A stretch of DNA of 64,000 nt from Octopus vulgaris (Eukaryota), in contig OX597814.1 in assembly GCA_951406725.2 (NCBI GenBank), forward strand, positions 23,374,001-23,438,000, read 5' to 3'. This document shows positions 1,872 to 32,613 of this stretch, piece after piece; positions within the stretch are counted from its first letter, which is position 1, and each line of letters begins with the position of its first letter. The notes beneath the pieces are model-generated. The model made no database searches and was not told the origin of the DNA. It saw only the letters and a program-made list of their open reading frames with translations. The translations under genes were made by a program, and so were the position numbers.

Positions 1872-2070
1872 TTTAAGTAGTTAAATGAATTATCCTAGTA
1901 TGGATAATTCGGTTAACCGATACCCAGGTAGCAAATTTACGTCAGAAAGCACGGTTGAAGCTACATGCCAAGGGCAGAAATCAAGTGCTTTCGTATGGAA
2001 ATTTGTGTGTTTTTTTACTATAGATAAATGAAAGAATGGAGTCGAACGACGATTTAACAAAATTCCTTTA

Positions 2071-2153
2071 TTCTCGACATATGTTTCAAAGACTGCATAT
2101 TCTTAATTCCGAAGGAATAAAGGGCGCATTATGCCGTCTTCTCATCAGGAAAG
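2071..2153 (-). ncRNA. Type I hammerhead ribozyme motif (left arm of inverted repeat)
   Basis: Minus strand: ctttc CTGATGA gaagacggcata...tatgcagtcttt GAAA c atat GTC gagaa. Confidence 0.75.
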
Positions 2154-2703
2154 ACATGGAACTTATGTCAGCATCATGACGAACAAAAACTTTTAGATGA
2201 CTGCTCACACGGAATCCATAGTGATAATGAGTGTTTCTTTAAAATATTCCGTTATAAGCAGTGACGTCAACATTGGTTGGATGGATAAGATTCTAAAAAG
2301 TTCAAGAGTTCAAAAATGGTTCGAAGGGGCAGGTTCTAAAAATAGGGGGTGACAGAGTGCAAGTCATATGTATGGTGATGCGTTGTTGTTTGCTTTTGCC
2401 AATGAGATTGAGTGCCTATGTGTGTGTATGTATATAACTGCATTCGTGTCTATGTGTGTGTATGTATATAACTGCATTCGTGTCTATGTGTGTGTATATC
2501 TGTCACCCCCCCTATTCTTAGAACCTGCCCCTTCCAACCATTTTTGAACTCTTGAACTTTTTAGAATCTTATCCATCCAACCAATGTTGACGTCACTGCT
2601 TATAACGGAATATTTTAAAGAAACACTCATTATCACTATGGATTCCGTGTGGGCAGTCATCTAAAAGTTTTTGTTCTTCATGATGCTGACATAAGTTCCT
2701 TGT

Positions 2704-7939: not shown

Positions 7940-8490
7940 TCCCTGATACAGTACCAGGCAGTGACTCTCATGGCTGCTGATCTTAACTGATTGGAAGTTT
8001 TATCATGTACATTGTTTTGTCTTGGTATAAAAGATGGGCTACAGTAAATATTCTGCTCAATACCACAGATTTGCTCGTCAGTTGCTTGACCATAACCAGT
8101 TGAGTATGTCCCTTAGTGGCTGACGATATGTGCATCTCTGATTACAAGCAGAAGTAGTGGAGGAGCATCATAGCCATGTGTTGAAAGAATTCTTGGGGTT
8201 TGGATAATTCACCTTTGGAAACATGGGTGGTTTGTTCAACATCCTTAAACAATCCTTATTCAGGGACCTTTAGAACAGGATGGGTTACTTGACCAGAAGA
8301 AAATTCTAACTGGGTCCACCTGCAAGTTCATGTGCTGTTTATCTTGATATGAGATCACCATGTCGCGCACATATGGTTGTGATGCATGTGCCTGGTGTAC
8401 CCTTATCAGACAAGTAGTCATGATGGGTATACTGGGCTTCGTATATTTTACCCCAGTGTCACTTTGATGGCATGCATTGCTCTCTCACTC
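7940..8490 (+). mobile_element. Non-coding (TAA)n-flanked repeat element (orientation arbitrary)
   Basis: Second, inverted copy at 15007-15417 with the same ends; both flanked by TAA/TTA repeats. Confidence 0.75.
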
Positions 8491-8543
<53 letters not shown>

Positions 8544-14800: not shown

Positions 14801-14971
14801 TATTCTTATTATTGGCAGAATTATCAGCACATCAAACAAAATGCTTAGTATTATTTTTTCTGACTGTCATCATTTTGGGGTCAATAAAATAAAGTGGATC
14901 AAAATGCTTAGTGACATTTCATTACAATATAATTGTTATCGTTGTTATTATCATCATCATCATCATCACCA

Positions 14972-15006
<35 letters not shown>

Positions 15007-15417
15007 GAGTGAGAGAGCAGTTCATGCCATCAAAGTGACACTGGGGTAAAATATACGAAGCCCAATATACCCATCATGACTACCCGTCTGATAAAGGTAC
15101 ACCAGGCACATGCATCACAACCATATGTGCGCGACATGGTGATCTCATATCAAGATAAACAGCACATGACCTTGCAGGTGGGGCCCAGTTAGAATTTTCT
15201 TCAGGTTGAGTAGCCCATCCCGCTCAAACGGTCCCTGAATAAGGGTTGTTTAAGGATGTTGAAAGAACCACCCATGTTTCCAGAGGTGAACTATTCAAAC
15301 CCCAAACAATCCCTCTCAGCACATGGCTATGATGCTCCCCACTACTTCTGCTCGTGATCAGAGATGCACATATCGTCAGCCACTAAGGGACATGACTGCC
15401 TGGTACTGCATCAGGGC
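15007..15417 (-). mobile_element. Second copy of the (TAA)n-flanked element, with internal deletion
   Basis: Reverse complement of 7940-8490 lacking about 140 bp near one end; (TTA)n on both sides. Confidence 0.8.
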
Positions 15418-18659: not shown

Positions 18660-18814
18660 TATTTACAAGTAGTTATATGTTCGGTCATAGAGTGACCAAT
18701 AGTTTCGCATTCATACAGCACTAGGCCTTGTAGATGGCTTGTCAGACTTAGTGCTGTATGGATGTGAAACCATTGGTCACTATGACTAGGCATCTATTTA
18801 ACTGCTTGTAAATA
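18660..18814. repeat. Fold-back hairpin containing a degenerate minus-strand hammerhead (18691-18748)
   Basis: Arms ~18660-18723 / 18749-18814; minus strand agt CTGACAA gc..gc GAAAC tattg GTC act. Confidence 0.7.
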
Positions 18815-19930
18815 CTTTACTGCTCTATTCATTATAATGTTTTTCTTTTTGGAATATATGATCCACTGACGATATGTATATATGTGTGTGTGTGTGTGTG
18901 TATCAGCATCATCATCATCATCATCATCATCATTTCATGTCCATTTTCCTTATTTGCATGAGTCAGGAAAAGTTTATTGCAACAGATATTCTATAGGAAG
19001 ATGCCTTTCCTGTCACCAATCCTTACCTGTTCCTCTCACTAGGTAATATTTCCCATGCTCAGACATGTTACCATAGAAGACTGGAAATAATCAATATCAT
19101 TATCAGCATGAGTGCAACTTACAGAACCATGCAGCAATGGACATGAAGATAAAGATAAATACCTAAACCCTTCAATCTTCAGCTTTCACATGTAAATTCT
19201 GATTGATATACTCAAATGCCATAATATTGAAAGACAGCAGGGTAATCCCATTAGTAGGAGAAGTTAGACAGATAAAGAAGGAGAATGAAATAATGCAATT
19301 GAATAAATCAGGTGAGGTTAAGTCAAATTAAGAGATGTTAAAAGTACTTAAAAGAAGTTAAAAGTACAATTTTAAAGCACATTATACTCAAATGCTAAGT
19401 TTTGGTAATAGAAAGATAAGGAAATTTTTGAAACTGGAGAGTGGTGGTTACTTGAGCAATATTTAAGAAACAAATGGGTTAGTTGTTTGTGTTTACTGCA
19501 AGCTTAGTTTTGAAGTATACATTAATAAATATATCGGGAAAGTAATCAAAGTAAAAGAATTTTATATAACTCTGAATAACTGAACCAATCTTGGGATACA
19601 AGCAGTCACATATATCATAGTAGTACATAATACATCTCAAGAAAATATTCTGTTCACATCAGAGGGATGACTTGTAAATTCGTGCCTGTTCTAAACTATC
19701 AAAATATGCTAATGGTACAAAATATAGTTATCAGCTTTCCTAGAACCACCACAATTTAAATAACAATTTCCATCACTAGTATCTACCAAGTGGTGGAAAT
19801 TCCTATATTTAAAGAAGCTTTGGAACATGAAGGAAAATATTTTGAGATTGTTTACTAAAATGGTTTTAAAATTTCCTTATTCTATTACAACTAATATCAA
19901 GAAAAAATTATCCAGCTTGAAAAGATAAAC

Positions 19931-20094
19931 TGCTTTGAATGGAAAACCATTTCACAGTATCGTATTTTCTGCCAGTTTTACATAAAAGCTGTATCTACTT
20001 TTTCTTCTTAGTACAAGAATCTCAGCTTCTCAGTTAATTACAAATAACAGCCCAGTTATGACGAATTTATTTTATGTTACCAAATTAGATCCAC
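19931..20094 (+). repeat. Left arm of long-range inverted repeat
   Basis: 19963-20069 equals the reverse complement of 28870-28976 at 106/107 positions. Confidence 0.95.
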
Positions 20095-21326
20095 CAAAGA
20101 TTTTTTCAATTACTAAATAGCATTCTATAAGATATAATTCAATATTTCTACATTCTAAAGTTTGATTTATAATTATTTTAATAGGATATTCACTTTTTTA
20201 TACAAAAAGATTTATAATACCCCAAACAAGCTTTTTTATTTTAGTATTTATTTTCTGTTTTTGATTATTGATATAATACATATTCTACTAAACATTTATT
20301 TATGATATCCTACATTTGAAGTGAAAACTGGGAAGAGTTTTAGGATGTGATTCTATCTAAAGTAACTGTCATCTATTTTATATTTTTGAAATATTTCATC
20401 CAGATATTATGTCTAATATCTCCACATATTTTTGTTTTTACTTTAACTGCTTATTCTTTCTATTGTACAAAATCTTGTTTTGTCTCTATATGCAAAATTG
20501 TAACAATTTTTCAAGTGCTATTTTTGAATAATTTTAAAAAAATGAAGCTGAAATAGAGCAGAATTCCTGAGTTTGTTCAGTTCCATTATTTATTTGAATT
20601 TTATGTGATAAGCTATAAGTATTTTGTGATACCAACTGGCAGTTAAGAAATTGGGCTGTTGATGGTAAAAGGTCTTCGCTATAGATGTATAGAAAAAGGA
20701 TTTAAAGGGATAAACCCATAGCCAGCAGTCTGATACTCCATTGGCTCATCCACTTACAACTCCCAAACCCACTTACATTAATACTGCCTGATTTTTTTTA
20801 TTCAAGAACATCAGCATTCATAAATTCTCTTTCAACTCACATCCTTCCTAAAGACATTGACTTAAATCTATTTAGACTGAACATCAAATGCATTGATCTC
20901 ATCAGTCTCTAAAGAAGTGCAAGAATAATGGCTATAGTCCATCCCTCCAGATTAAAACTATTGAAAGGTAATGAAATTCAGGAAAGTCTATAGAGACTTA
21001 CATTTAAATTATCCCTTCTAGAATTATCAAAAATCTTAGTCCTGATTACCAAAAACATAAAGTTTAATTTATTGTTTACATAAAAGCTACAGAATTTTCC
21101 AACATTAACATAAAACCGCCAGTTGATACTATAAGATACTTATTGCTTATCACATTTCCAGTGATTCTCATAAAAGAATACAATATTTCATAATCTGTTA
21201 ATTTACCTAAAGTAGATGTGGCTATTGTCTGAATGATCAAAATACATAAATTTGTACATTCCCATATAAAAAATAATTTCAATATGAACCAAGACCTTGA
21301 ATGTTGAAATCAAAATCTATTATACA

Positions 21327-21556
21327 GGTAAAGTAAAAGTTACCTTCTTGAGTTATGCCAACTCATAAGGGCTGGTTTCCTGGTTTTCATGATGTGCAAA
21401 TTCCCCACCTGGATGGGACACTGGTTTGTTGCAGGATTACTCATTTTTGCCAGCTGAGTGGACTGGAGCAATGTGGAATGAAGTGTTTTGCTCAAAAACA
21501 CAACACCTCACCTGGTCTAGGAATCAAAACCAAACTCTTACAATCATGAGTCCACC
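21327..21556 (-). mobile_element. SINE family E (tRNA head, V/Meta-domain-like core)
   Basis: Reverse complement resembles 62503-62769 (cacttcatttcacattgctccagtccactcagctggcaaaaatgagtaa). Confidence 0.75.
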
Positions 21557-22637
21557 CCCACTAAAATTTTTTATATAAGTGATGAGAAATAGTAGACAAA
21601 GTATGATGCAAAATATAAATGTTTTTTTTCTACATTTTGCTTTGTCGTTTGTCCTAGCATAGTTCATACATTGAAACTCATTTGGCTTGGTAGTGCTCAA
21701 CAGATGAATTAAATGCAGAAGATAAAACAGCTAACACACGTATAATGCCAATAATGTATATAAGGTAATAGAACATAGTTTTGTAAAATGTCTCACATTT
21801 GTAGAGAATTCTCTAAAATAGATCAATACAAAATATAACTACATGTTTTATTATAATGCTATTAATGGTGCTATGAAAATAAAGATGATTTAAAGCAAAG
21901 GCCCTTGCCTTACCATACTCAAAACAACAAGTTTGTATTTGAATTAAGAGTTTCTAATTTGTTAAGAGACCCTTATTTCTTTACTTTAGTCTATGCCTAG
22001 TATAAAAATCATGAAATACAATAAGGAACTGTGGATAGACTAGTACATATGATGCTTTCATAACTTACTTTTTCAGTTTTATATAATAACATAACTATAA
22101 CTAAATGTCAAAACATCAGTAAAAGATAGCATCTGGTTTTATAATCAGCTAAAAGGGGATTGAAGGGCCAACAAAAAAGCCAGAAATCCCACAGGAGTTG
22201 ACACTTTGGACCAGTGATGATGATAATGTTGCTGACAATGATGATGATGATGATGATGACAACGGTAAGTTGACTATGTGATACAGTCTGATTATAAGTA
22301 ATATGTTTTCCAGCTGTTTCTATCATCTCTCAAATCTATTGTAAGTTCTAATTCTCTTAAATCCTACATTACTACTTTCTTTTGCTTATCTCTTCACCAG
22401 CTTTCCTTACCTATCTTATTCCCATCGCTCTTCTTCATCCAAACCACAAAATTTATGCTCATCACATGTCTCTATTTAATCCGATTAATATCAAGAGAAA
22501 TATTAGAAAGTTGTCAAATCATTCAGCCTCAGTTAAATGACTTCAATAAGAAATGCCCACTCTCCTTGCACTTTAGATAGATTGTTACCTATTGTTGTTC
22601 TTGTTCTTCTCGTTGTTGTTGTTGTTTTTTGTTGTAG

Positions 22638-22694
22638 ATTCTGTTACATTGAAAAAGAGCGAAGGTTTACAGGATATTTTTAAGAATATACTAT
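22638..22694 (+). CDS. Candidate 57-nt symmetric internal exon (xSVTLKKSEGLQDIFKNIL)
   Basis: Long T-rich tract + gtag acceptor; open in phase 1; donor GTTAGT at 22695 (alternative donor after 22664 gives 27 nt); protein not recognised. Confidence 0.3.
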
Positions 22695-23004
22695 GTTAGT
22701 TTCTTTGACACTATACTGAGTGATAAGTTAGTAAAAAGTCTGGTGTTTTAGTAATCAGTTTTATGTTTAATGGATCTATTAATCAACATTGCATCACAGC
22801 TGATTCTGCATAGCAACTATTAAAAGCCTTCAGCTTTATTCACCTGTTGCATTAGACAGAACAATTTTACATTGCAACTCGACGATTGCTGAAGGGTAAT
22901 AATGTGAATTGTTATTTTATCATCATTGAATTTTTTTCGTCTATTTATTTTTTTAAAGGAATCCATAAATAACCAATTATGTCTAATCCAGTACTGCTTC
23001 ACAC

Positions 23005-23141
23005 ATAATATGTACACATACACACATTCACACACACACAAGCACATACACATACACATATATACATAAAAACATACATATGTACATGTATATATATTTA
23101 ATACATAATAAACATATACATATATAAACATATATATACAT

Positions 23142-23184
<43 letters not shown>

Positions 23185-23320
23185 TAAATGTACATATATA
23201 TATACACATATATATATAAATACATATATGATATATTCAGATATATGGTAAAAAATATATATGTATGTATGTATGTTTGTATGTATATATATATATATAT
23301 ATGCATGTATATATGTGTAC

Positions 23321-23352
<32 letters not shown>

Positions 23353-23445
23353 GTATATATATATATATTTGTATATGTATATATATGTATATATATATGT
23401 ATATATATATAAATGCATATATATATATACACACACACACACACT
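23005..23445. repeat. (TA)/(CA) compound microsatellite
   Basis: Seen directly. Confidence 0.9.
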
Positions 23446-23919
23446 ACCAAATGTTGTTAAAAGAAAGCTGCATATTTATATTTTTTTTTATTTCTTCTTC
23501 TTATAGAAAGTTTCTCTATGTGTTTGTTCAATAGATGGGAATTGACTTTTTCTTAATGTCTTCTGCACATATAAAATAGACTGAAAGACAATAGAGAATC
23601 AGATTGAAATGGGCAGGTAGTAACTACTTGATTATCACAAGCACTACCTCTTTTGCTTCTTATTCATTTGATCCTTCTTCTTTCATTTGAAAGTTAATTG
23701 AAATCTGACACCTTCCAGCTATGCATTAGCGACCAATGGACTTAATGTATTACAACATTGACTTTTGTTTCTTTTTGCCTACCTGCCTGCAGAGTTAGTT
23801 CTTATGCTAAGTAAATGTACACTGGCACACATTACTATGCATCTGCACATATAGAAAGACTGGCATGCATACACACTCATGTGCGCACACAAACACAAGT
23901 CACACTATATAATATGTAC

Positions 23920-23947
23920 ACGTGTGTATGTATATACATATTAGTAG

Positions 23948-23998
<51 letters not shown>

Positions 23999-24108
23999 TA
24001 TTATATATATGTATAACTCTAAATATATAAGTGCATGTATATATTTGTTCATAAATATGAAAATATATGTAAGTATATATAACTTTATGTATATATCTAT
24101 AGAACCTA

Positions 24109-24188
<80 letters not shown>

Positions 24189-24310
24189 TAACATATATAT
24201 GTATCGGTGAATGATGATGGTGAGGGTGATGATATATGTATATATTTATATATATATATATATATGATATGTATATAATATATGTATGATATATATGTAT
24301 ATATGCTTGT
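23920..24310. repeat. (TA)n-rich microsatellite
   Basis: Seen directly. Confidence 0.9.
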
Positions 24311-25049
24311 GTGCATGTGCGTGTTCACAGTAAAAGCAATAGGAAATATATGCTAATCTATAATGAAGAATCAATCAAAAGATTAATTTCACCATAGTTT
24401 CTGCATGATTTTACATTTTGATTTTTGATTTTTATTAATACCAAAAGTTATATTATCTCTATATGCAATTTTTCTTATATCCGTTATACAATAATCAATA
24501 CTTTCTTACAATAATCACAATCCTTACATTACTTTCCAATGAGAAAAATATTCAGAAATTTGACTGAAACTGCTGAAGTAGTTTGATGAATTATCATTTT
24601 TATTTTAGTTTGGATTTTTAATGATTTCTACAGATGATATTTAAGACTGAGGTATTTTTATGATTTTTGTCATCTTCAAAATGGCACTAATCAGTTTGTT
24701 CAAGTACCACATTTGGTAAAGAAATAATTATTGGACTTCTTGCTTATGTATGAGTTCCTTACATTTATTGTGTGTTTAAAATAGGTTCAATCTAGTATGT
24801 ATGTTCCATGTATAGTTTATCCATTAATCCATCCATCCATCCATCCATTTACTCCACCTACTACTCCTGACAGAGTTGTGGGAGTAGAGTCCTTTTCATA
24901 GGGCCCCATTAAAAAGAATCAGGATTTCTGTAGTAGTATCACTTGACAGAGTGTGTAGCTCAGAGATCAAGGAGTCTCAAGAGATCAGGTCAAGCTGTCA
25001 TTTCTCTACATCAAGAGATCACAGCTCAGCTCTAGTACTATAGTCATAT

Positions 25050-25253
25050 TACTCTTTTACTCTTTTACTTGTGTCAGGTATTTGACTGTGCCATGCTGGA
25101 GCATCGCCTTTAGTCGAGCAAATCGACCCCAGGACTTATGCTTTGTAAGCCTAGTACTTATTCTATTGGTCTCTTTTGCTGAACTGCTGAGTTACGGAGA
25201 TGTAAACACACCAGCATCAGTTGTCAAGCAATGTTGGGGGGACAGACACACAA

Positions 25254-25302
<49 letters not shown>

Positions 25303-25462
25303 TATAACAGGCTTCTTTCACTTTCCATCTACCAAATCCACTCACAAGGCTTTGGTCGGCCCGAGGCTATAGTAGAAGACACTTGCCCAAGATGCCACGC
25401 AGTGGGACTGAACCAGGAACCATGTGGTTGGTAAGCAAGCTACTTACCACACAGCCACTCCT
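25050..25462 (-). mobile_element. SINE family A, full length
   Basis: Colinear with 352-764. Confidence 0.85.
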
Positions 25463-27694
25463 ATGTGAAGTACTAAAAGTAAAGTTGCAGCAAAGGATTA
25501 CATAAAAAATTCTTCAAGCTGAGCCAGCAGGCAAGAAACCTAGGGTAGACCAAGAATGACATGGTTGAATAGTAGCCATAGTCTCAGTTGGTCATGCTCA
25601 GGAATCCAGCAGGAAAGAGTAATGAGAGTTGCTAAAAAAGGAAAGCTATTGTTTAGATGTTGGCAAATTAAAAATTAACAAATACCAGGGTGAATAATAG
25701 AGACATAATAATGAATACAAATAGGAATCTAAAAACAGGTTACCAACTACATGAATGAATTTTGTTGTAACGAGGTTGCTGATGTAACATTCGAACCTCA
25801 CTTTTATTGAAATAAGTTACTAATTCAGTAACATTATCCCAATTTGTAATTGGTTTCCATAGGTTTACATCAATTAGAAATTTGTTTTCTTATGTCCGTT
25901 TGCCAACTGCCAGATTTGACTGGGCCTGATGAAGCCTTCTGGCTTCACAGACCCCAGTAGAACCGTCCAACCCATGCTAACATGGAAAACGGACGCTAAA
26001 CGATGATGATGATGATGATGATGAGGATGTCATTGGCCAATTATTCCCTTTTGTCTTGAAACTTTGCTGAAAATAAAAATGTTTATACCAGCCAAGATAT
26101 GTCTTTATCAAAAATAATTTCATAATAAAGCCACCAGTCTATAGTTTATATCTGTCTCTTAGCTTTCTATAAGAGAAATTTTGTCAAATTGCCTGAAACA
26201 GCATATATAGTAAGCATATCTCCTTCCAACTGACAATCTCTCGAAATCTTGAATTTTTCAAACTACAGCTGTATTCCTTTACTTTTCATACGTCACATTA
26301 GGATACTAGATGTTGCTTATAGAATTCAGCAAATAATTTGTTTAGTGAATTCTTTAAAGAAGCATCAGAACTTTTGCTGAGTTCATTAGCCTGGAGTATC
26401 TTTGGCTGAAGAAATACCAGTGTTGCAAAGTCTCCTTACATCAATGAATTTTGATATGAACTATCATTTCTTAGTAAGATGTTGTTCTACAATGATGACA
26501 TACAGCAATGATCAACATATACATGTTCAAATCTGCTGGAACATATTATAATTGAGTATGTATATCATTGCTTTGATTCTTATTGTTCACTGTGCACATG
26601 AGAATTTAGCATTAAAATTGATTTTAAGCAAATAATAAGTGTATGCATTGCACTTTGCTCTTAAAGAGTACAAGTGAACCAGTGTGGTGTAGTGCCTTAA
26701 AATCAGTAAATACTATGTCATTTTCCAATTCACTTAAAAATTCAAAAACCCAGTGTAATACAAGAATGTACGTTGGCTCAGTTATTAGAAATCTGTGATA
26801 TGATTTGTCATTCCCAAATTTTTAAGAAGGAAGGGTTTGATATGAGAGAAATTTAATCAACTACATAGAGCATTCCCTTGTTGTTTCATTAATATTGATT
26901 TTATTGATGTTGTTTTAATTTTAGCTTTGGGTCTCCTTTCATGTTTTTGTTTTTCTAGAGGACAGAAACCCCTCAAGTTATTAGTACTGCAATTGTAGAA
27001 CTTTGACTTTCTGCTTTTAGCACAACTCTCATTATGGAATCCTTTGATATGAAATTGAAATTTTTTCTAGATTTTAGAGTGTAATTAACACCTGAAGTTC
27101 AACCTGAAGTTACATCAGAATCTCTGGCCAATTCTCAAAAATCAATGTTTTCCTCAAAATCCTCTGCTTATTTAGCAATAGTGTCATGTTGTGGATCATC
27201 ACTTACATATAGTGAGGATCTAGTTAAAAAGTATCAATAGAAAATAGCAATTTTTCTGAAATACAGAACATATTGGATTGCTTTTCTTTCCTTTCAAACA
27301 ATGCCACATGTATCCACCTTGTATAATGTTATGTAGCATTTCAGGCATTTTCAGTGTATACTTGATAGGAACTTTTAGCTTTCCTTGCCTTTGTTTTTTA
27401 TGCTTTGATCCCCTCGAAGGCATATTACTTCTGGTCTATGAATTTAAAACCTGGCATTCTTATATTTTCTCTGTGGACTTCTAATTGCTATTTTCAGATA
27501 TGTTGTTTATGCTACAGCTATTTTTTTTATTGTTATTACCTAATAGTAATAACAATAAAAAAATAGCTATTTCTATTTAAGTATTTCTTTAATATTTTCA
27601 CCTTTGGTATTGTTATTTGCCAGTGGTGTTCTCTGTCTAAAGAGAACTAAATAAAGCAGCACATATGCTAGGACACAACAACCTCCTAAGCAAA

Positions 27695-28087
27695 CCAAGT
27701 TCAGGTATGAACAGTATATGGGAACTGGTATGAAGGAAGGATAGGAGAATATTTGATTTATAAGCCCTAAAATTTGCTCCATAATTGCCCACGAGGATAT
27801 GGCGTAGTGGTTAAGAGCATGGGCTACTAACCCCAAGATTCCGTGTTCGATTTCAGGCAGTGACCTAAATACTACTACTACTACTAATAATAATAATAAT
27901 AACACTGAAAAATACCTTAGGAATGAGAACCCAGGTTCGAAATTTCCCCAAGACACCTAATGAAGGCTTGGAGGGTATATCAGCCGAAACATTGTGTTAA
28001 CAACAAACAAGATGAGGAAAAAATCTCTGTCAATTATAAATAATGTAAATAATGTACATAATTCCTCATCTATTAAATATAGAACTT
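27695..28087 (+). mobile_element. Composite element: tRNA-like head (27794-27866), (TAC/TAA)n, degenerate minimal hammerhead (27952-27998)
   Basis: tggcgtagtggttaa (A box), gttcgatttc (B box), anticodon-like loop ctactaa; gacac CTAATGA a ggct..agcc GAAAC ATT gtgtt; outer ends approximate. Confidence 0.6.
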
Positions 28088-28249
28088 TATAGTGTTGTCA
28101 TACCACTTTGTCTCGTGGGAAGGGGAGTACCGTTTTCACTACAACAGAATGAAATCCAGATCACAAGCATTTTTCACCAATATCTATGTTACTCTTATGT
28201 CATGGCACTCACCTATCAATTTATATCGATGTTGAACAAATATAGATTT

Positions 28250-28458
28250 CAAATTTTGGCACAAGGCCAGCAAGTTTGAGGAAGAGTGTAAGTTGGTTAC
28301 ATTGACTTCAGTGCTCAATTGGCACTTATTTTATCAACACCAAAAGGAAGAAAGGCAAAGCCGAACGTGGCAGAATTTGAACTCCAAACATTAGAACAGA
28401 TGAAATATCACTAAGTATTTTGCCTGGTGTGGTAACGATACCGCCAGCTAACCACCTT
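28250..28458 (-). mobile_element. SINE family B
   Basis: gaaaggcaaagccgaac..cagaatttgaactc..ccgccagctaaccacctt. Confidence 0.75.
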
Positions 28459-28844
28459 ATATGTAGAGCAAATATTAGGAGAAATTTTAGTTGGTCAGAT
28501 TTCTTTCTAATATACACCAGTGAAAAACACACAGACATATATGTATACACACATACATTTATATGCACACACACACACACAAATATGTATGCACATAAAT
28601 ACACACACATGTGTATGTGTGTGTGTGTGTGTGTACGTGCGTGTGTGCATGCAAGAGACTTCCATACAGTTTCAGTGCAAATATAATTCTACTCACAAAA
28701 TCATGGTTAGCCCAAGGCTGCGATAGAACCTGGTAGCATGAGATTGCAAATCAAAAATGTCATTATTCTTTCTTATTTCCAATTTTTCAATGAGTATGAC
28801 CAATCAAGCATGATAAATGTTGACTGGTTGCTGACAAAACAATA

Positions 28845-29008
28845 GTGGATCTAATTTGGTAAAATAAAGTAAATTCGTCATAACTGGGCTGTTATTTGTA
28901 ATTAACAGAGAAGCTGAGATTCTTGTACTAAGAAGAAAAAGTAGATACAGCTTTTATGTAAAACTGGCAGAAAATAAGATTCTATGAATTGGTTATTCCT
29001 TCAAAGTA
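28845..29008 (-). repeat. Right arm of long-range inverted repeat
   Basis: Reverse complement of 19931-20094. Confidence 0.95.
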
Positions 29009-29217
29009 AACATTCTGATATTTTAGATCAGCTGTAAAGGGAGTTCTATACAGAGAAGAAAAGATCCTGTTGATTCCTGTTGTATAGTCTTCTGTCAAGG
29101 AAATAAGAGAGTGAAGAAAAGCAGATTGCTAATAGCTTATGGCTTGGCAATCTATGTGTGCTAACTCTATTATTACATGACTATATGCAAACAATTTGTT
29201 GAAAGATATATAAAATT

Positions 29218-29333
29218 CAATAGCTGTGGTGGTCATAAGTTATTGCATCTGACTGAAGGACTGTGAGTGTGACTTGCTCAGAAGATACATATCTGGCTCT
29301 TGATGATGCAATGGTTGTGGCTACAAGTTATTG
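29218..29333 (+). other. G-U-rich RNA stem-loop candidate
   Basis: caatagctgtggtggtcataagttattgcatc pairs with gatgcaatggttgtggctacaagttattg: ~29 bp, 6 G-U, bulges only. Confidence 0.45.
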
Positions 29334-29518
29334 CATCCAGCAAAAATAGTGTTTCCGTTACCCTCATATCAGATGATTGCTTGTAAAACCAGTCAGTAAA
29401 GGAGTGTTAAGGGTAGTACTACTCTTTATTTTGTAATAGTATTATTAGTTTATGCTTAGAAAAGTCTATTAGATAAAAGAGATTTTGATAAAATTATTAC
29501 CAGACTAAGTCTATATAG

Positions 29519-31357: not shown

Positions 31358-32613
31358 TGTTAAGTTGTCTCATGATAAGTCGTATTTTAAATGGGTTTCT
31401 TATGAGTCATCTGTAAATGGATTTTTAATGAGTTTCTATGTACATGCTTGTGTTTACTCTTAGCTCCTTTTCTTTCTAGATGATACTATTATTCAAAATT
31501 GCTACTCACAGCTCTTATGACAATGTTGACAACTGAACAATACCAAGTGATTTTCTTGTATGAATACAAGTTGGGTTGCTCTGCCACCAAAGCTCGGCAA
31601 AACATCAGCAGGCTTTTGGTAATGATTCTGTTGACATTAGAACTGTTTAGAGATGGTTCCAAAGATTTCATTCAGGAAATGAAAGCCTTAAAAAAGAATC
31701 AAGAAGATGACCAAACTCAGTTATTCGGCATGATGAATTGAATGCTTTGGTTAAATGAAATCCGAGAACAACAGTCCGAAAAATTGGATCAGAGTTCCAG
31801 ACATCTCCTGCAACTGCTTCCCGACACTTGAAGAATATTGGAAAAGTCAAAAAGATGGGTAGGTTTGTTCCCCATCAACTTAAGGAGATTCAGTGTGTTC
31901 CATATTGATTTCTTGTTTGGAAAGAGAACCATTTTGGTATCGACTCATTACATGAGATGAGAAATGGATACTCTTTGATAACAGCAGGAGGATAGAACAG
32001 TGGTTAGATGCAGGAGAGTCACCAAAACACTACCCAAAACCACCATTGCACCCTCAAAAGTTGATGGTCACTGTATGGTAGTCAACAAAAGGGGTTATTC
32101 GTTATTCATTTTTTGCAACAAGGAAAAACTGTAAAAGCAGCATCTTATTGTCAGGAAATTGATTGTATGCATGAAAAATTACAAAAGAAGCAACCCAGCT
32201 TAGTGAATAGAGATGGCCCAATTTTGCTTCATGATAATGCATGGTCTCATGCTTCTCAAGCTAAGGCCCACAAGTTGCAAAACCTGAATTATGAAATTTT
32301 GGCACATCCTCCTTATTCACCTGATATCTCTCCTACTGATTATCACATATTTAAACAATTCAAGCTTGTTAAACGCAATAAAACATTCTTGAATAAAGAA
32401 GTGCTAATTGAAGCATTCAAACAGTTTATCAGTGTAAAAGATGACAAATTCTTGGAAGACGAAATATATACCTTAGAAGAACGTTAGATGAAGGTCATAA
32501 ATGAAATAGGATCATATTTTGATTATCATTAATAACTAAATATTCTAAAACTTAAAAGATAGTTTTAATGTTTCCTTTTTCAAATGTGACATTTCATGTG
32601 AGACAACCTAATA
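31358..32613 (+). mobile_element. Mariner (DD34D) transposon, full length, transposase pseudogene ~31522-32530
   Basis: TIR ttaagttgtctca / tgagacaacctaata; FVPHQL, DEKWILFDN, LLHDNA, HPPYSPDISPTDY motifs with stops and frameshifts. Confidence 0.92.

What the first reader, a model, noticed from the sequence alone, without database searches (positions are those of the whole stretch)
19931..29008. Near-perfect long-range inverted repeat 8.8 kb apart in non-transposon-looking DNA
Seen: 19963-20069 is the reverse complement of 28870-28976 at 106/107 nt, while the adjoining flanks of the same duplication are clearly more diverged. It matches none of the repeat families in this window and has no TIR/TSD signature. 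A homogeneous core within older flanks suggests selection for pairing or gene conversion. Inference: an intronic RNA duplex looping out ~8.7 kb, which could act as an ADAR editing-complementary structure (recoding is extensive in coleoids), drive exon skipping, or promote back-splicing of enclosed exons.
Basis: partly seen in the sequence, partly recalled or inferred. Interest (0 to 1): 0.75.

Follow-up and report, generated by a model that had tools for sequence, protein, structure and literature searches.

The report
Old backwards DNA copy, partly re-polished
A 162-base stretch of non-coding DNA in a likely octopus genome has one backwards copy 8.75 kb away, likely left by repair of a DNA break and likely re-polished later by copying between the two arms; a related species lacks the near-perfect match, so it is probably an ordinary scar rather than an RNA-editing or splicing switch.

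Summary
The repeat is real: 19933-20094 versus 28845-29006 match at 152/162 (core 106/107), with two copies found in the genome, and both arms appear in 2 of 2 close-kin DNA runs. It is not wholly unique DNA. An old low-copy repeat relic runs unbroken across the outer edge of arm 2 but stops at the edge of arm 1, so arm 1 is likely the pasted copy. A relative 6.1% diverged carries arm 1 in place, so the event predates that split, and whole-arm divergence fits neutral drift (P=0.60). That relative's contig crosses arm 1 unbroken at single depth, so it likely has no near-identical partner; its arm 2 was not seen. Arm 1 is no better conserved than its flank, and mismatches do not favour G-U pairs. 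The clean core is somewhat too clean (P about 0.01-0.07), best read as arm-to-arm gene conversion. No host exon was found; transcription is untested. Verdict: repair-type duplication (rival: staggered-break inversion scar), a known class. This scan noted similar scars on other DNA of this genome. Low interest.

The parts
19933..20094 (+). Arm 1: inverted copy (inferred acceptor) of 28845-29006
   Evidence: 152/162 identity; relic homology limited to 19930-19969 and not continuing outward; present at this place in organism E
19963..20069 (+). Near-identical core of arm 1 (106/107), likely gene-conversion tract; may extend to 20094 (129/132)
   Evidence: contig break at 19992 in X3 and X4
19933..19962 (+). 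Outer diverged part of arm 1 (7 mismatches in 30). Over 19932-19962 organism E sides with arm 2 at 4 sites and, by absence of a listed difference, with arm 1 at 4
20095..28844 (.). 8.75-kb spacer: microsatellites, dispersed repeats and old relics; no exon detected
28845..29006 (-). Arm 2: inferred donor, at least its outer ~40 nt native to this place
   Evidence: relic profile built without window DNA matches 28970-29176 across the arm edge
28967..29471 (+). Old low-copy dispersed repeat relic (60-77% identical to copies at L070, L073, L075, L076, L102, L105); family not identified
   Evidence: no convincing Pfam hit among 50 relic open frames

Best explanation
Arm 1 is a 162-base backwards match to arm 2 and is likely a copy pasted in during repair of a DNA break, with arm 2, 8.75 kb away, as template, and later gene conversion between the arms likely re-homogenised the 107-132-base core. 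Shown: two copies found; an old relic crosses arm 2's outer edge and ends at arm 1's; arm 1 sits at the same place in a relative 6.1% diverged. Inferred: direction arm 2 to arm 1; repair by strand invasion and copying (SDSA-type); age older than that split; conversion rather than chance as the cause of the clean core (about 2:1, my estimate); no selected function. If the region is transcribed the arms could pair (predicted -236 kcal/mol on either strand) and be edited as a by-product, like many repeat pairs nearby.
For: Two copies genome-wide. Direction: relic profile hits 28970-29176 (E 1.9e-22) and 29371-29470, but at arm 1 only 19930-19969 (E 0.19). Extension beyond the arm edge gains 128/95/42 points at arm 2 (0 of 300 shuffles each) and 0/7/2 at arm 1 (224-1000 of 1000 shuffles as good). 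Entry of the relic into arm 2: 3 of 2000 shuffles for one paralog. Age and neutrality: E contig colinear 19247-21486 with 136 substitutions in 2232; P(<=10 of 162 at 6.1%)=0.60; arm 1 versus flank divergence from E not different. Conversion: core 1/107 P=0.0095 and clustering P=0.0025-0.071; 3/132 P=0.037. Class: proximal repair duplications average 162 bp (PMC2671141). Local low-copy duplicates are common here: 22 pairs within 20 kb in 464 kb, 14 direct and 8 inverted; 1 of 2 other pairs checked genome-wide was clearly local.
Against: The distance is atypical: Pace et al. call only pairs under 5 kb confident repair duplications (824 of 1136; 58 same-chromosome pairs lay farther), and the other 7 inverted local pairs here are 121-1339 nt apart. 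No empty site, microhomology or filler could be shown because E already has arm 1. The relic entry into arm 2 was not significant for a second paralog (332 of 2000 shuffles), and the relic does not cover the core, so the donor call rests on ~40 nt. Eight differences in the outer 31 nt exceed the 6.1% expectation (P=0.0004), and their polarity is unresolved: paralog L073 sides with arm 1 (24 vs 19 of 26), while the L070 paralog sides with arm 2 at several sites. E's arm 2 and E's differences after 20006 were not visible.
Confidence: 0.5

Rival explanations
1. Scar of a small inversion: a staggered break at the arm-2 end and a blunt break at the other end inverted the 8.75-kb spacer and duplicated the 162-nt overhang at both breakpoints. 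Later history (drift, conversion) as in the best explanation; equally non-functional.
For: Predicts exactly this layout, including a relic that continues outside arm 2 and stops at arm 1, and explains the long distance. In Drosophila 17 of 29 inversions carry inverted duplications, often from one breakpoint only, median 321 bp, shortest 46 bp (PMC1885836, passages).
Against: No direct sign of an inversion: E is colinear through arm 1 and both its flanks, so any inversion predates E. No repeat relic was found spanning either predicted old junction. Plain local copies are frequent in this neighbourhood.
Confidence: 0.3
2. One reading: a selected long-range RNA duplex in a pre-mRNA that serves ADAR editing, exon skipping or back-splicing.
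For: Core cleaner than neutral expectation; a stable duplex is predicted; octopus has very high hyper-editing and dsRNA potential (PMC5625713, passages).
Against: Near-perfect pairing likely absent in E; arm 1 not conserved above flank, no G-U bias (2 of 10 mismatches are wobble-compatible on +, 1 of 10 on -, read); neither arm has a Pfam hit, so no sign of an exon-intron pairing; the pair ranks 7 of 15 inverted pairs of 80 nt or more within 10 kb in this window by duplex energy; no host-gene hit in 432 of 717 window frames and 300 of 1159 flanking frames.
Confidence: 0.08
3. Terminal inverted repeats of a decayed 9-kb DNA transposon.
For: Two inverted arms of a length seen in TIRs (recalled); a 5-mer direct match near the outer ends.
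Against: Only two copies found; the outer ends are the least conserved part; an older relic runs through arm 2's outer end, which an insertion would have cut; no transposase hit in the spacer.
Confidence: 0.04
4. Two ancient, independently inserted fragments of one repeat family that were later homogenised by conversion.
For: The outer 40 nt belong to a dispersed relic, and one paralog matches arm 1 at 24 of 26 sites; one weak hit suggests the relic may reach 28925 (E 0.032).
Against: The relic does not continue outside arm 1 and does not cover the core; both arms share the same relic/core junction, which points to one local copying event.
Confidence: 0.07
5. Assembly artefact.
For: Near-identical core.
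Against: Both arms are seen in 2 of 2 independent close-kin runs, with arm-specific letters.
Confidence: 0.01

Closest known systems
Repair-mediated duplications (RDs), Pace, Sen, Batzer, Feschotte 2009, PMC2671141 (abstract, Results parts 1-2 of 3, passages)
   Same: Two copies only, same chromosome, length 162 nt (their proximal mean is 162 bp), no poly(A), neutral-rate divergence; they report one case inserted in the opposite orientation.
   Different: 8.75 kb apart, beyond their 5-kb cut-off for confident RDs; empty site and breakpoint marks not testable here; patchy identity suggesting later conversion, a term that does not occur in their main text.
Inversion-associated inverted duplications by staggered breaks in the Drosophila melanogaster group, PMC1885836 (passages)
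   Same: Inverted duplicate of non-repetitive DNA at both ends of a segment, often from one breakpoint only; size range includes 162 nt.
   Different: No inversion shown here; no outgroup with the ancestral order was available.
Arm-to-arm gene conversion in inverted repeats (Caenorhabditis intergenic IRs, PMC1803023, passages; sex-chromosome palindromes, search listing only)
   Same: Arms more alike than their age predicts; conversion proposed as the cause.
   Different: Those arms flank or hold genes, have short spacers or multi-kb arms, and stay alike in several species; here a short non-genic arm, a spacer 54 times the arm, and no sign of homogenisation to near-identity in E.
ADAR editing-complementary sequences and repeat-derived hyper-edited duplexes (PMC5625713 passages; ECS papers in search listing only)
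   Same: Would form a long stable duplex if transcribed.
   Different: No exon partner, no conservation, no editing data; that paper scored duplexes within 2 kb of edited clusters.

Membership tests
Repair-mediated duplication (Pace 2009) | Insert of 50 bp or more found at only one other place in the genome | tested here: met
   2 matches of 2 candidates; lower bound
Repair-mediated duplication (Pace 2009) | Donor and acceptor distinguishable | tested here: met
   relic crosses arm 2's edge only; rests on ~40 nt
Repair-mediated duplication (Pace 2009) | Donor within 5 kb (their operational cut-off for confident RDs) | tested here: not met
   8751 nt; falls in their 'distant' group, so it works like an RD but is not a confident member by their rule
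Repair-mediated duplication (Pace 2009) | No poly(A)/TSD of retrotransposition at the acceptor | tested here: met
   junction context and TSD scan around arm 1
Repair-mediated duplication (Pace 2009) | Empty orthologous site with microhomology, filler or deletion | not testable with these tools
   the most distant relative found already holds arm 1
Staggered-break inversion duplication (PMC1885836) | Inverted duplicate at both ends of a segment | tested here: met
Staggered-break inversion duplication (PMC1885836) | Segment inverted relative to an outgroup | tested here: inconclusive
   E colinear at arm 1; no older outgroup
Conserved ADAR/ECS or splicing duplex | Both arms in one transcript | not testable with these tools
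   no RNA run could be laid
Conserved ADAR/ECS or splicing duplex | Near-perfect pairing kept in a related species | tested here: not met
   unbroken single-depth contig in E, 2 of 2 runs; indirect, E's arm 2 unseen
Conserved ADAR/ECS or splicing duplex | Sequence constraint above flank, or bias to G-U-compatible changes | tested here: not met
   6/75 vs 33/555; 3/10 vs 16/33 transitions; small numbers
Conserved ADAR/ECS or splicing duplex | An exon in or beside an arm, or enclosed by the arms | tested here: inconclusive
   no Pfam exon in 145 of 179 candidate frames in 16.5-32.5 kb; short or non-Pfam exons would be missed
DNA transposon TIR pair | Multi-copy ends, best conserved at the termini, TSD, clean insertion | tested here: not met
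Known structured RNA family | Rfam match at gathering score | tested here: not met
   0 matches in the window

The most novel reading that the evidence does not exclude
Short (160-nt) inverted repair scars in octopods keep exchanging sequence across nearly 9 kb: a 107-132-nt conversion in the lineage of this genome and a separate patch of 14 nt or less (19941-19954) in organism E. This would keep regenerating near-perfect dsRNA from unique DNA in a lineage with very active ADAR, and this core could be a lineage-specific long-range editing or splicing duplex recently recruited from such a scar.
Probability: 0.07. Interest if true: 0.6.

Novelty: new member of a known kind. Interest (0 to 1): 0.15.

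Why it matters
As it stands, little: one more local duplication scar in a genome where such copies are common. The useful lesson is that a near-perfect core inside older flanks can arise without selection for RNA pairing, so such pairs need an outgroup check before being called editing or splicing elements. If conversion between 160-nt arms 9 kb apart proved general, it would bear on how unique-sequence dsRNA arises in heavily edited cephalopod transcriptomes.

Tried and rejected
Rfam: 0 matches. Coding origin of the arms: six-frame translations have stops and no Pfam hit. Host gene: Pfam on 432 of 717 window frames of 32 aa or more and 300 of 1159 frames of 45 aa or more in 200 kb on each side gave, at curated cut-offs, only transposase, reverse-transcriptase and one zinc-knuckle hit; frames were chosen by a composition heuristic and the rest were not scanned. 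Sequencing runs: no RNA holder listed, which is no evidence on expression. Zero-depth stretches in X3 and X4 and the unseen arm-2 contig of E were not used as evidence of absence. Homology beyond the 162-nt block: not significant. The pair 8106-8526/14971-15393 as a second unique repeat: rejected, 6281 candidates genome-wide. Identity of the old relic: I considered Penelope-like and hAT-like origins from recalled motifs; Pfam gave nothing convincing, so it is left unnamed. Searches for more relic copies partly hit younger repeats. Polarising the outer mismatches with relic paralogs gave conflicting answers. Literature searches: (0 papers); none of the listed titles concerned this locus, which does not show that it is not in print. 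No supplements were read.

Full report
Observation. The inverted repeat is there. In one ungapped register, 19933-20094 matches the reverse complement of 28845-29006 at 152 of 162 bases. The core 19963-20069 matches at 106 of 107, the outer 30 bases have 7 mismatches and the inner 25 have 2. Homology does not extend further. The window lies on contig C1 of a 2.8-Gb genome; I call it a likely octopus from that size (recalled) and from earlier AI notes on the same genome. A genome-wide search with the arm returned 2 matches from 2 candidates, whereas the same search with another inverted pair of the window returned 6281 candidates. So the arm is not a high-copy repeat, although the count is a lower bound.

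It is not an assembly error. In runs X3 (organism B) and X4 (organism A, another sample) the contig from the left stops at 19992, 30 bases into the identical core, and a second contig carries the arm-2 letters over the outer part. That is how an assembler with 31-base words breaks at a repeat (word length recalled; the 30-base overlap fits it).

Which arm is the copy. The DNA just outside arm 2 matches an old, low-copy dispersed relic. A profile built from 8 relic pieces without window DNA matches 28970-29176 and 29371-29470, running across the outer edge of arm 2, but at arm 1 only 19930-19969 (same result with 3 copies). Extending past the arm edge adds 128, 95 and 42 points against three paralogs at arm 2 (0 of 300 shuffles each), and 0, 7 and 2 points at arm 1 (no better than shuffles). 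The relic's entry into arm 2 was significant for one paralog (3 of 2000 shuffles) and not for another (332 of 2000), and it does not cover the core. I infer that arm 2 is native and arm 1 is the copy; this rests on about 40 bases. The relic could not be named.

Age and constraint. Of 24 runs listed, the most distant holder was organism E. In 2 of 2 E runs laid, one contig of 2258 bases covers 19247-21486 with 136 substitutions in 2232 aligned bases (6.1%) and passes through arm 1 and both its flanks. The copy is therefore older than that split, and the two arms should differ by about 6% or more. Overall they do: P(10 or fewer of 162)=0.60. The tool showed 40 of 242 difference rows, so E's letters are visible only up to 20006. 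There arm 1 differs from E at 6 of 75 sites against 33 of 555 in the flank (P=0.45), with 2 of 44 in the visible core: no sign of constraint, on small numbers. E's contig is unbroken and at single depth over arm 1, so E likely has no identical 31-base partner. Simulated arms lacked such a word in 0 of 20000 cases at 1% divergence, 0.9% at 3% and 16% at 6.1%. E's arms are thus either ordinarily diverged or arm 2 is gone. E's arm-2 locus itself was not seen.

The clean core. One mismatch in 107 is low for that age (P=0.0095; 3 in 132, P=0.037), and the mismatches are clustered (P=0.0025 under uniform rates, 0.015-0.071 with rate variation). The case was picked for looking extreme, so chance stays possible, but conversion between the arms is the simpler cause. 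The outer 31 bases hold 8 differences, more than expected (P=0.0004). E sides with arm 2 at 4 of them and, judged by the absence of a listed row, with arm 1 at 4. One relic paralog matches arm 1 at 24 of 26 sites and arm 2 at 19, which would make three neighbouring arm-2 letters in E a short conversion patch; another paralog points the other way. This stays unexplained.

The RNA model. The arms would pair at about -236 kcal/mol on either strand, but rank 7 of 15 inverted pairs of 80 bases or more within 10 kb in this window. Three of 10 mismatches are transitions against 16 of 33 in the background, so there is no drift towards G-U pairs. There is no Rfam match. Pfam found only mobile-element hits and one zinc knuckle at curated cut-offs in 432 of 717 window frames and 300 of 1159 frames in 200 kb on each side; short exons would be missed. 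Transcription is untested. Octopus is reported to have very high hyper-editing and dsRNA potential (PMC5625713, passages), so incidental editing is plausible if the locus is transcribed, but that would not make the pair a selected element.

Base rate. In 464 kb around the locus, 22 locally single pairs lie within 20 kb of each other, 14 direct and 8 inverted. Of 2 others checked genome-wide, one is a clear local inverted copy (251 bases, 93%) and one belongs to a repeat family. The present pair has the longest spacer of the 8 inverted pairs and the longest clean core of the 22.

Mechanism and rivals. Best: break repair copied 162 bases from arm 2 into a site 8.75 kb away, and later conversion polished the core (0.5). 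Repair-mediated duplications average 162 bp when proximal, but only those under 5 kb were called confident (PMC2671141; abstract, Results parts 1-2 of 3, passages), so this works like one without meeting that cut-off. Main rival: a one-sided staggered-break inversion, which gives the same layout and explains the distance (PMC1885836, passages) (0.3). Only an older outgroup can separate the two; both are non-functional scars. Conversion between inverted arms is described (PMC1803023, passages). Selected RNA duplex 0.08, two ancient repeat fragments 0.07, transposon ends 0.04, artefact 0.01.

Novelty. A new instance of a known kind. Earlier AI notes of this scan describe similar scars on other DNA of this genome; they gave me the Pace paper as a lead and are not counted as support. 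Interest 0.15.

Noticed in passing
window 20603-20644 / 21114-21155: Small inverted pair inside the spacer, 42 nt at 83%, 470 nt apart; the 581-nt stretch folds with z = -3.63; no other genomic copy listed. Probably an older, shorter local copy.
   Followed up: partly
window 2019-2356 / 2499-2838: Young fold-back element, arms ~335 nt at 97%, ~150-nt spacer, next to a microsatellite; a partial copy lies 146 kb upstream.
   Followed up: no
window 8106-8526 / 14971-15393: Inverted pair at 92%, 6.4 kb apart; two copies of a high-copy family (6281 candidates); the strongest predicted duplex of the window.
   Followed up: yes
window 31484-32484 (+): Decayed mariner-type transposase (Transposase_1 E 8.9e-09).
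   Followed up: partly
L031:4224-5543 (-), about 4 kb beyond the window end: 440-aa open frame without a Pfam hit whose first half resembles a Penelope-like reverse transcriptase (motif recalled, not tested), followed by an Asn-rich tail.
   Followed up: partly
L023:2218-2468 and its partner 1339 nt downstream: Another local inverted duplication, 251 nt at 93%; all other genomic hits are short and partial.
   Followed up: partly
L070:2138-2724 and L070:7622-8181; L073:1183-1795: Old unidentified dispersed relic, 60-68% identical copies; two lie in direct orientation 5.4 kb apart on C1.
   Followed up: partly
window 26280-26640: Old dispersed repeat inside the spacer (95 candidates, 67-83% identity).
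   Followed up: partly
window 18660-18814 and 27516-27568: Two short self-complementary stretches (72% over 163 nt; 91% over 55 nt).
   Followed up: no
window and L011-L050 (464 kb): No host-gene Pfam hit in the frames scanned: possibly a gene desert or a very large intron.
   Followed up: partly
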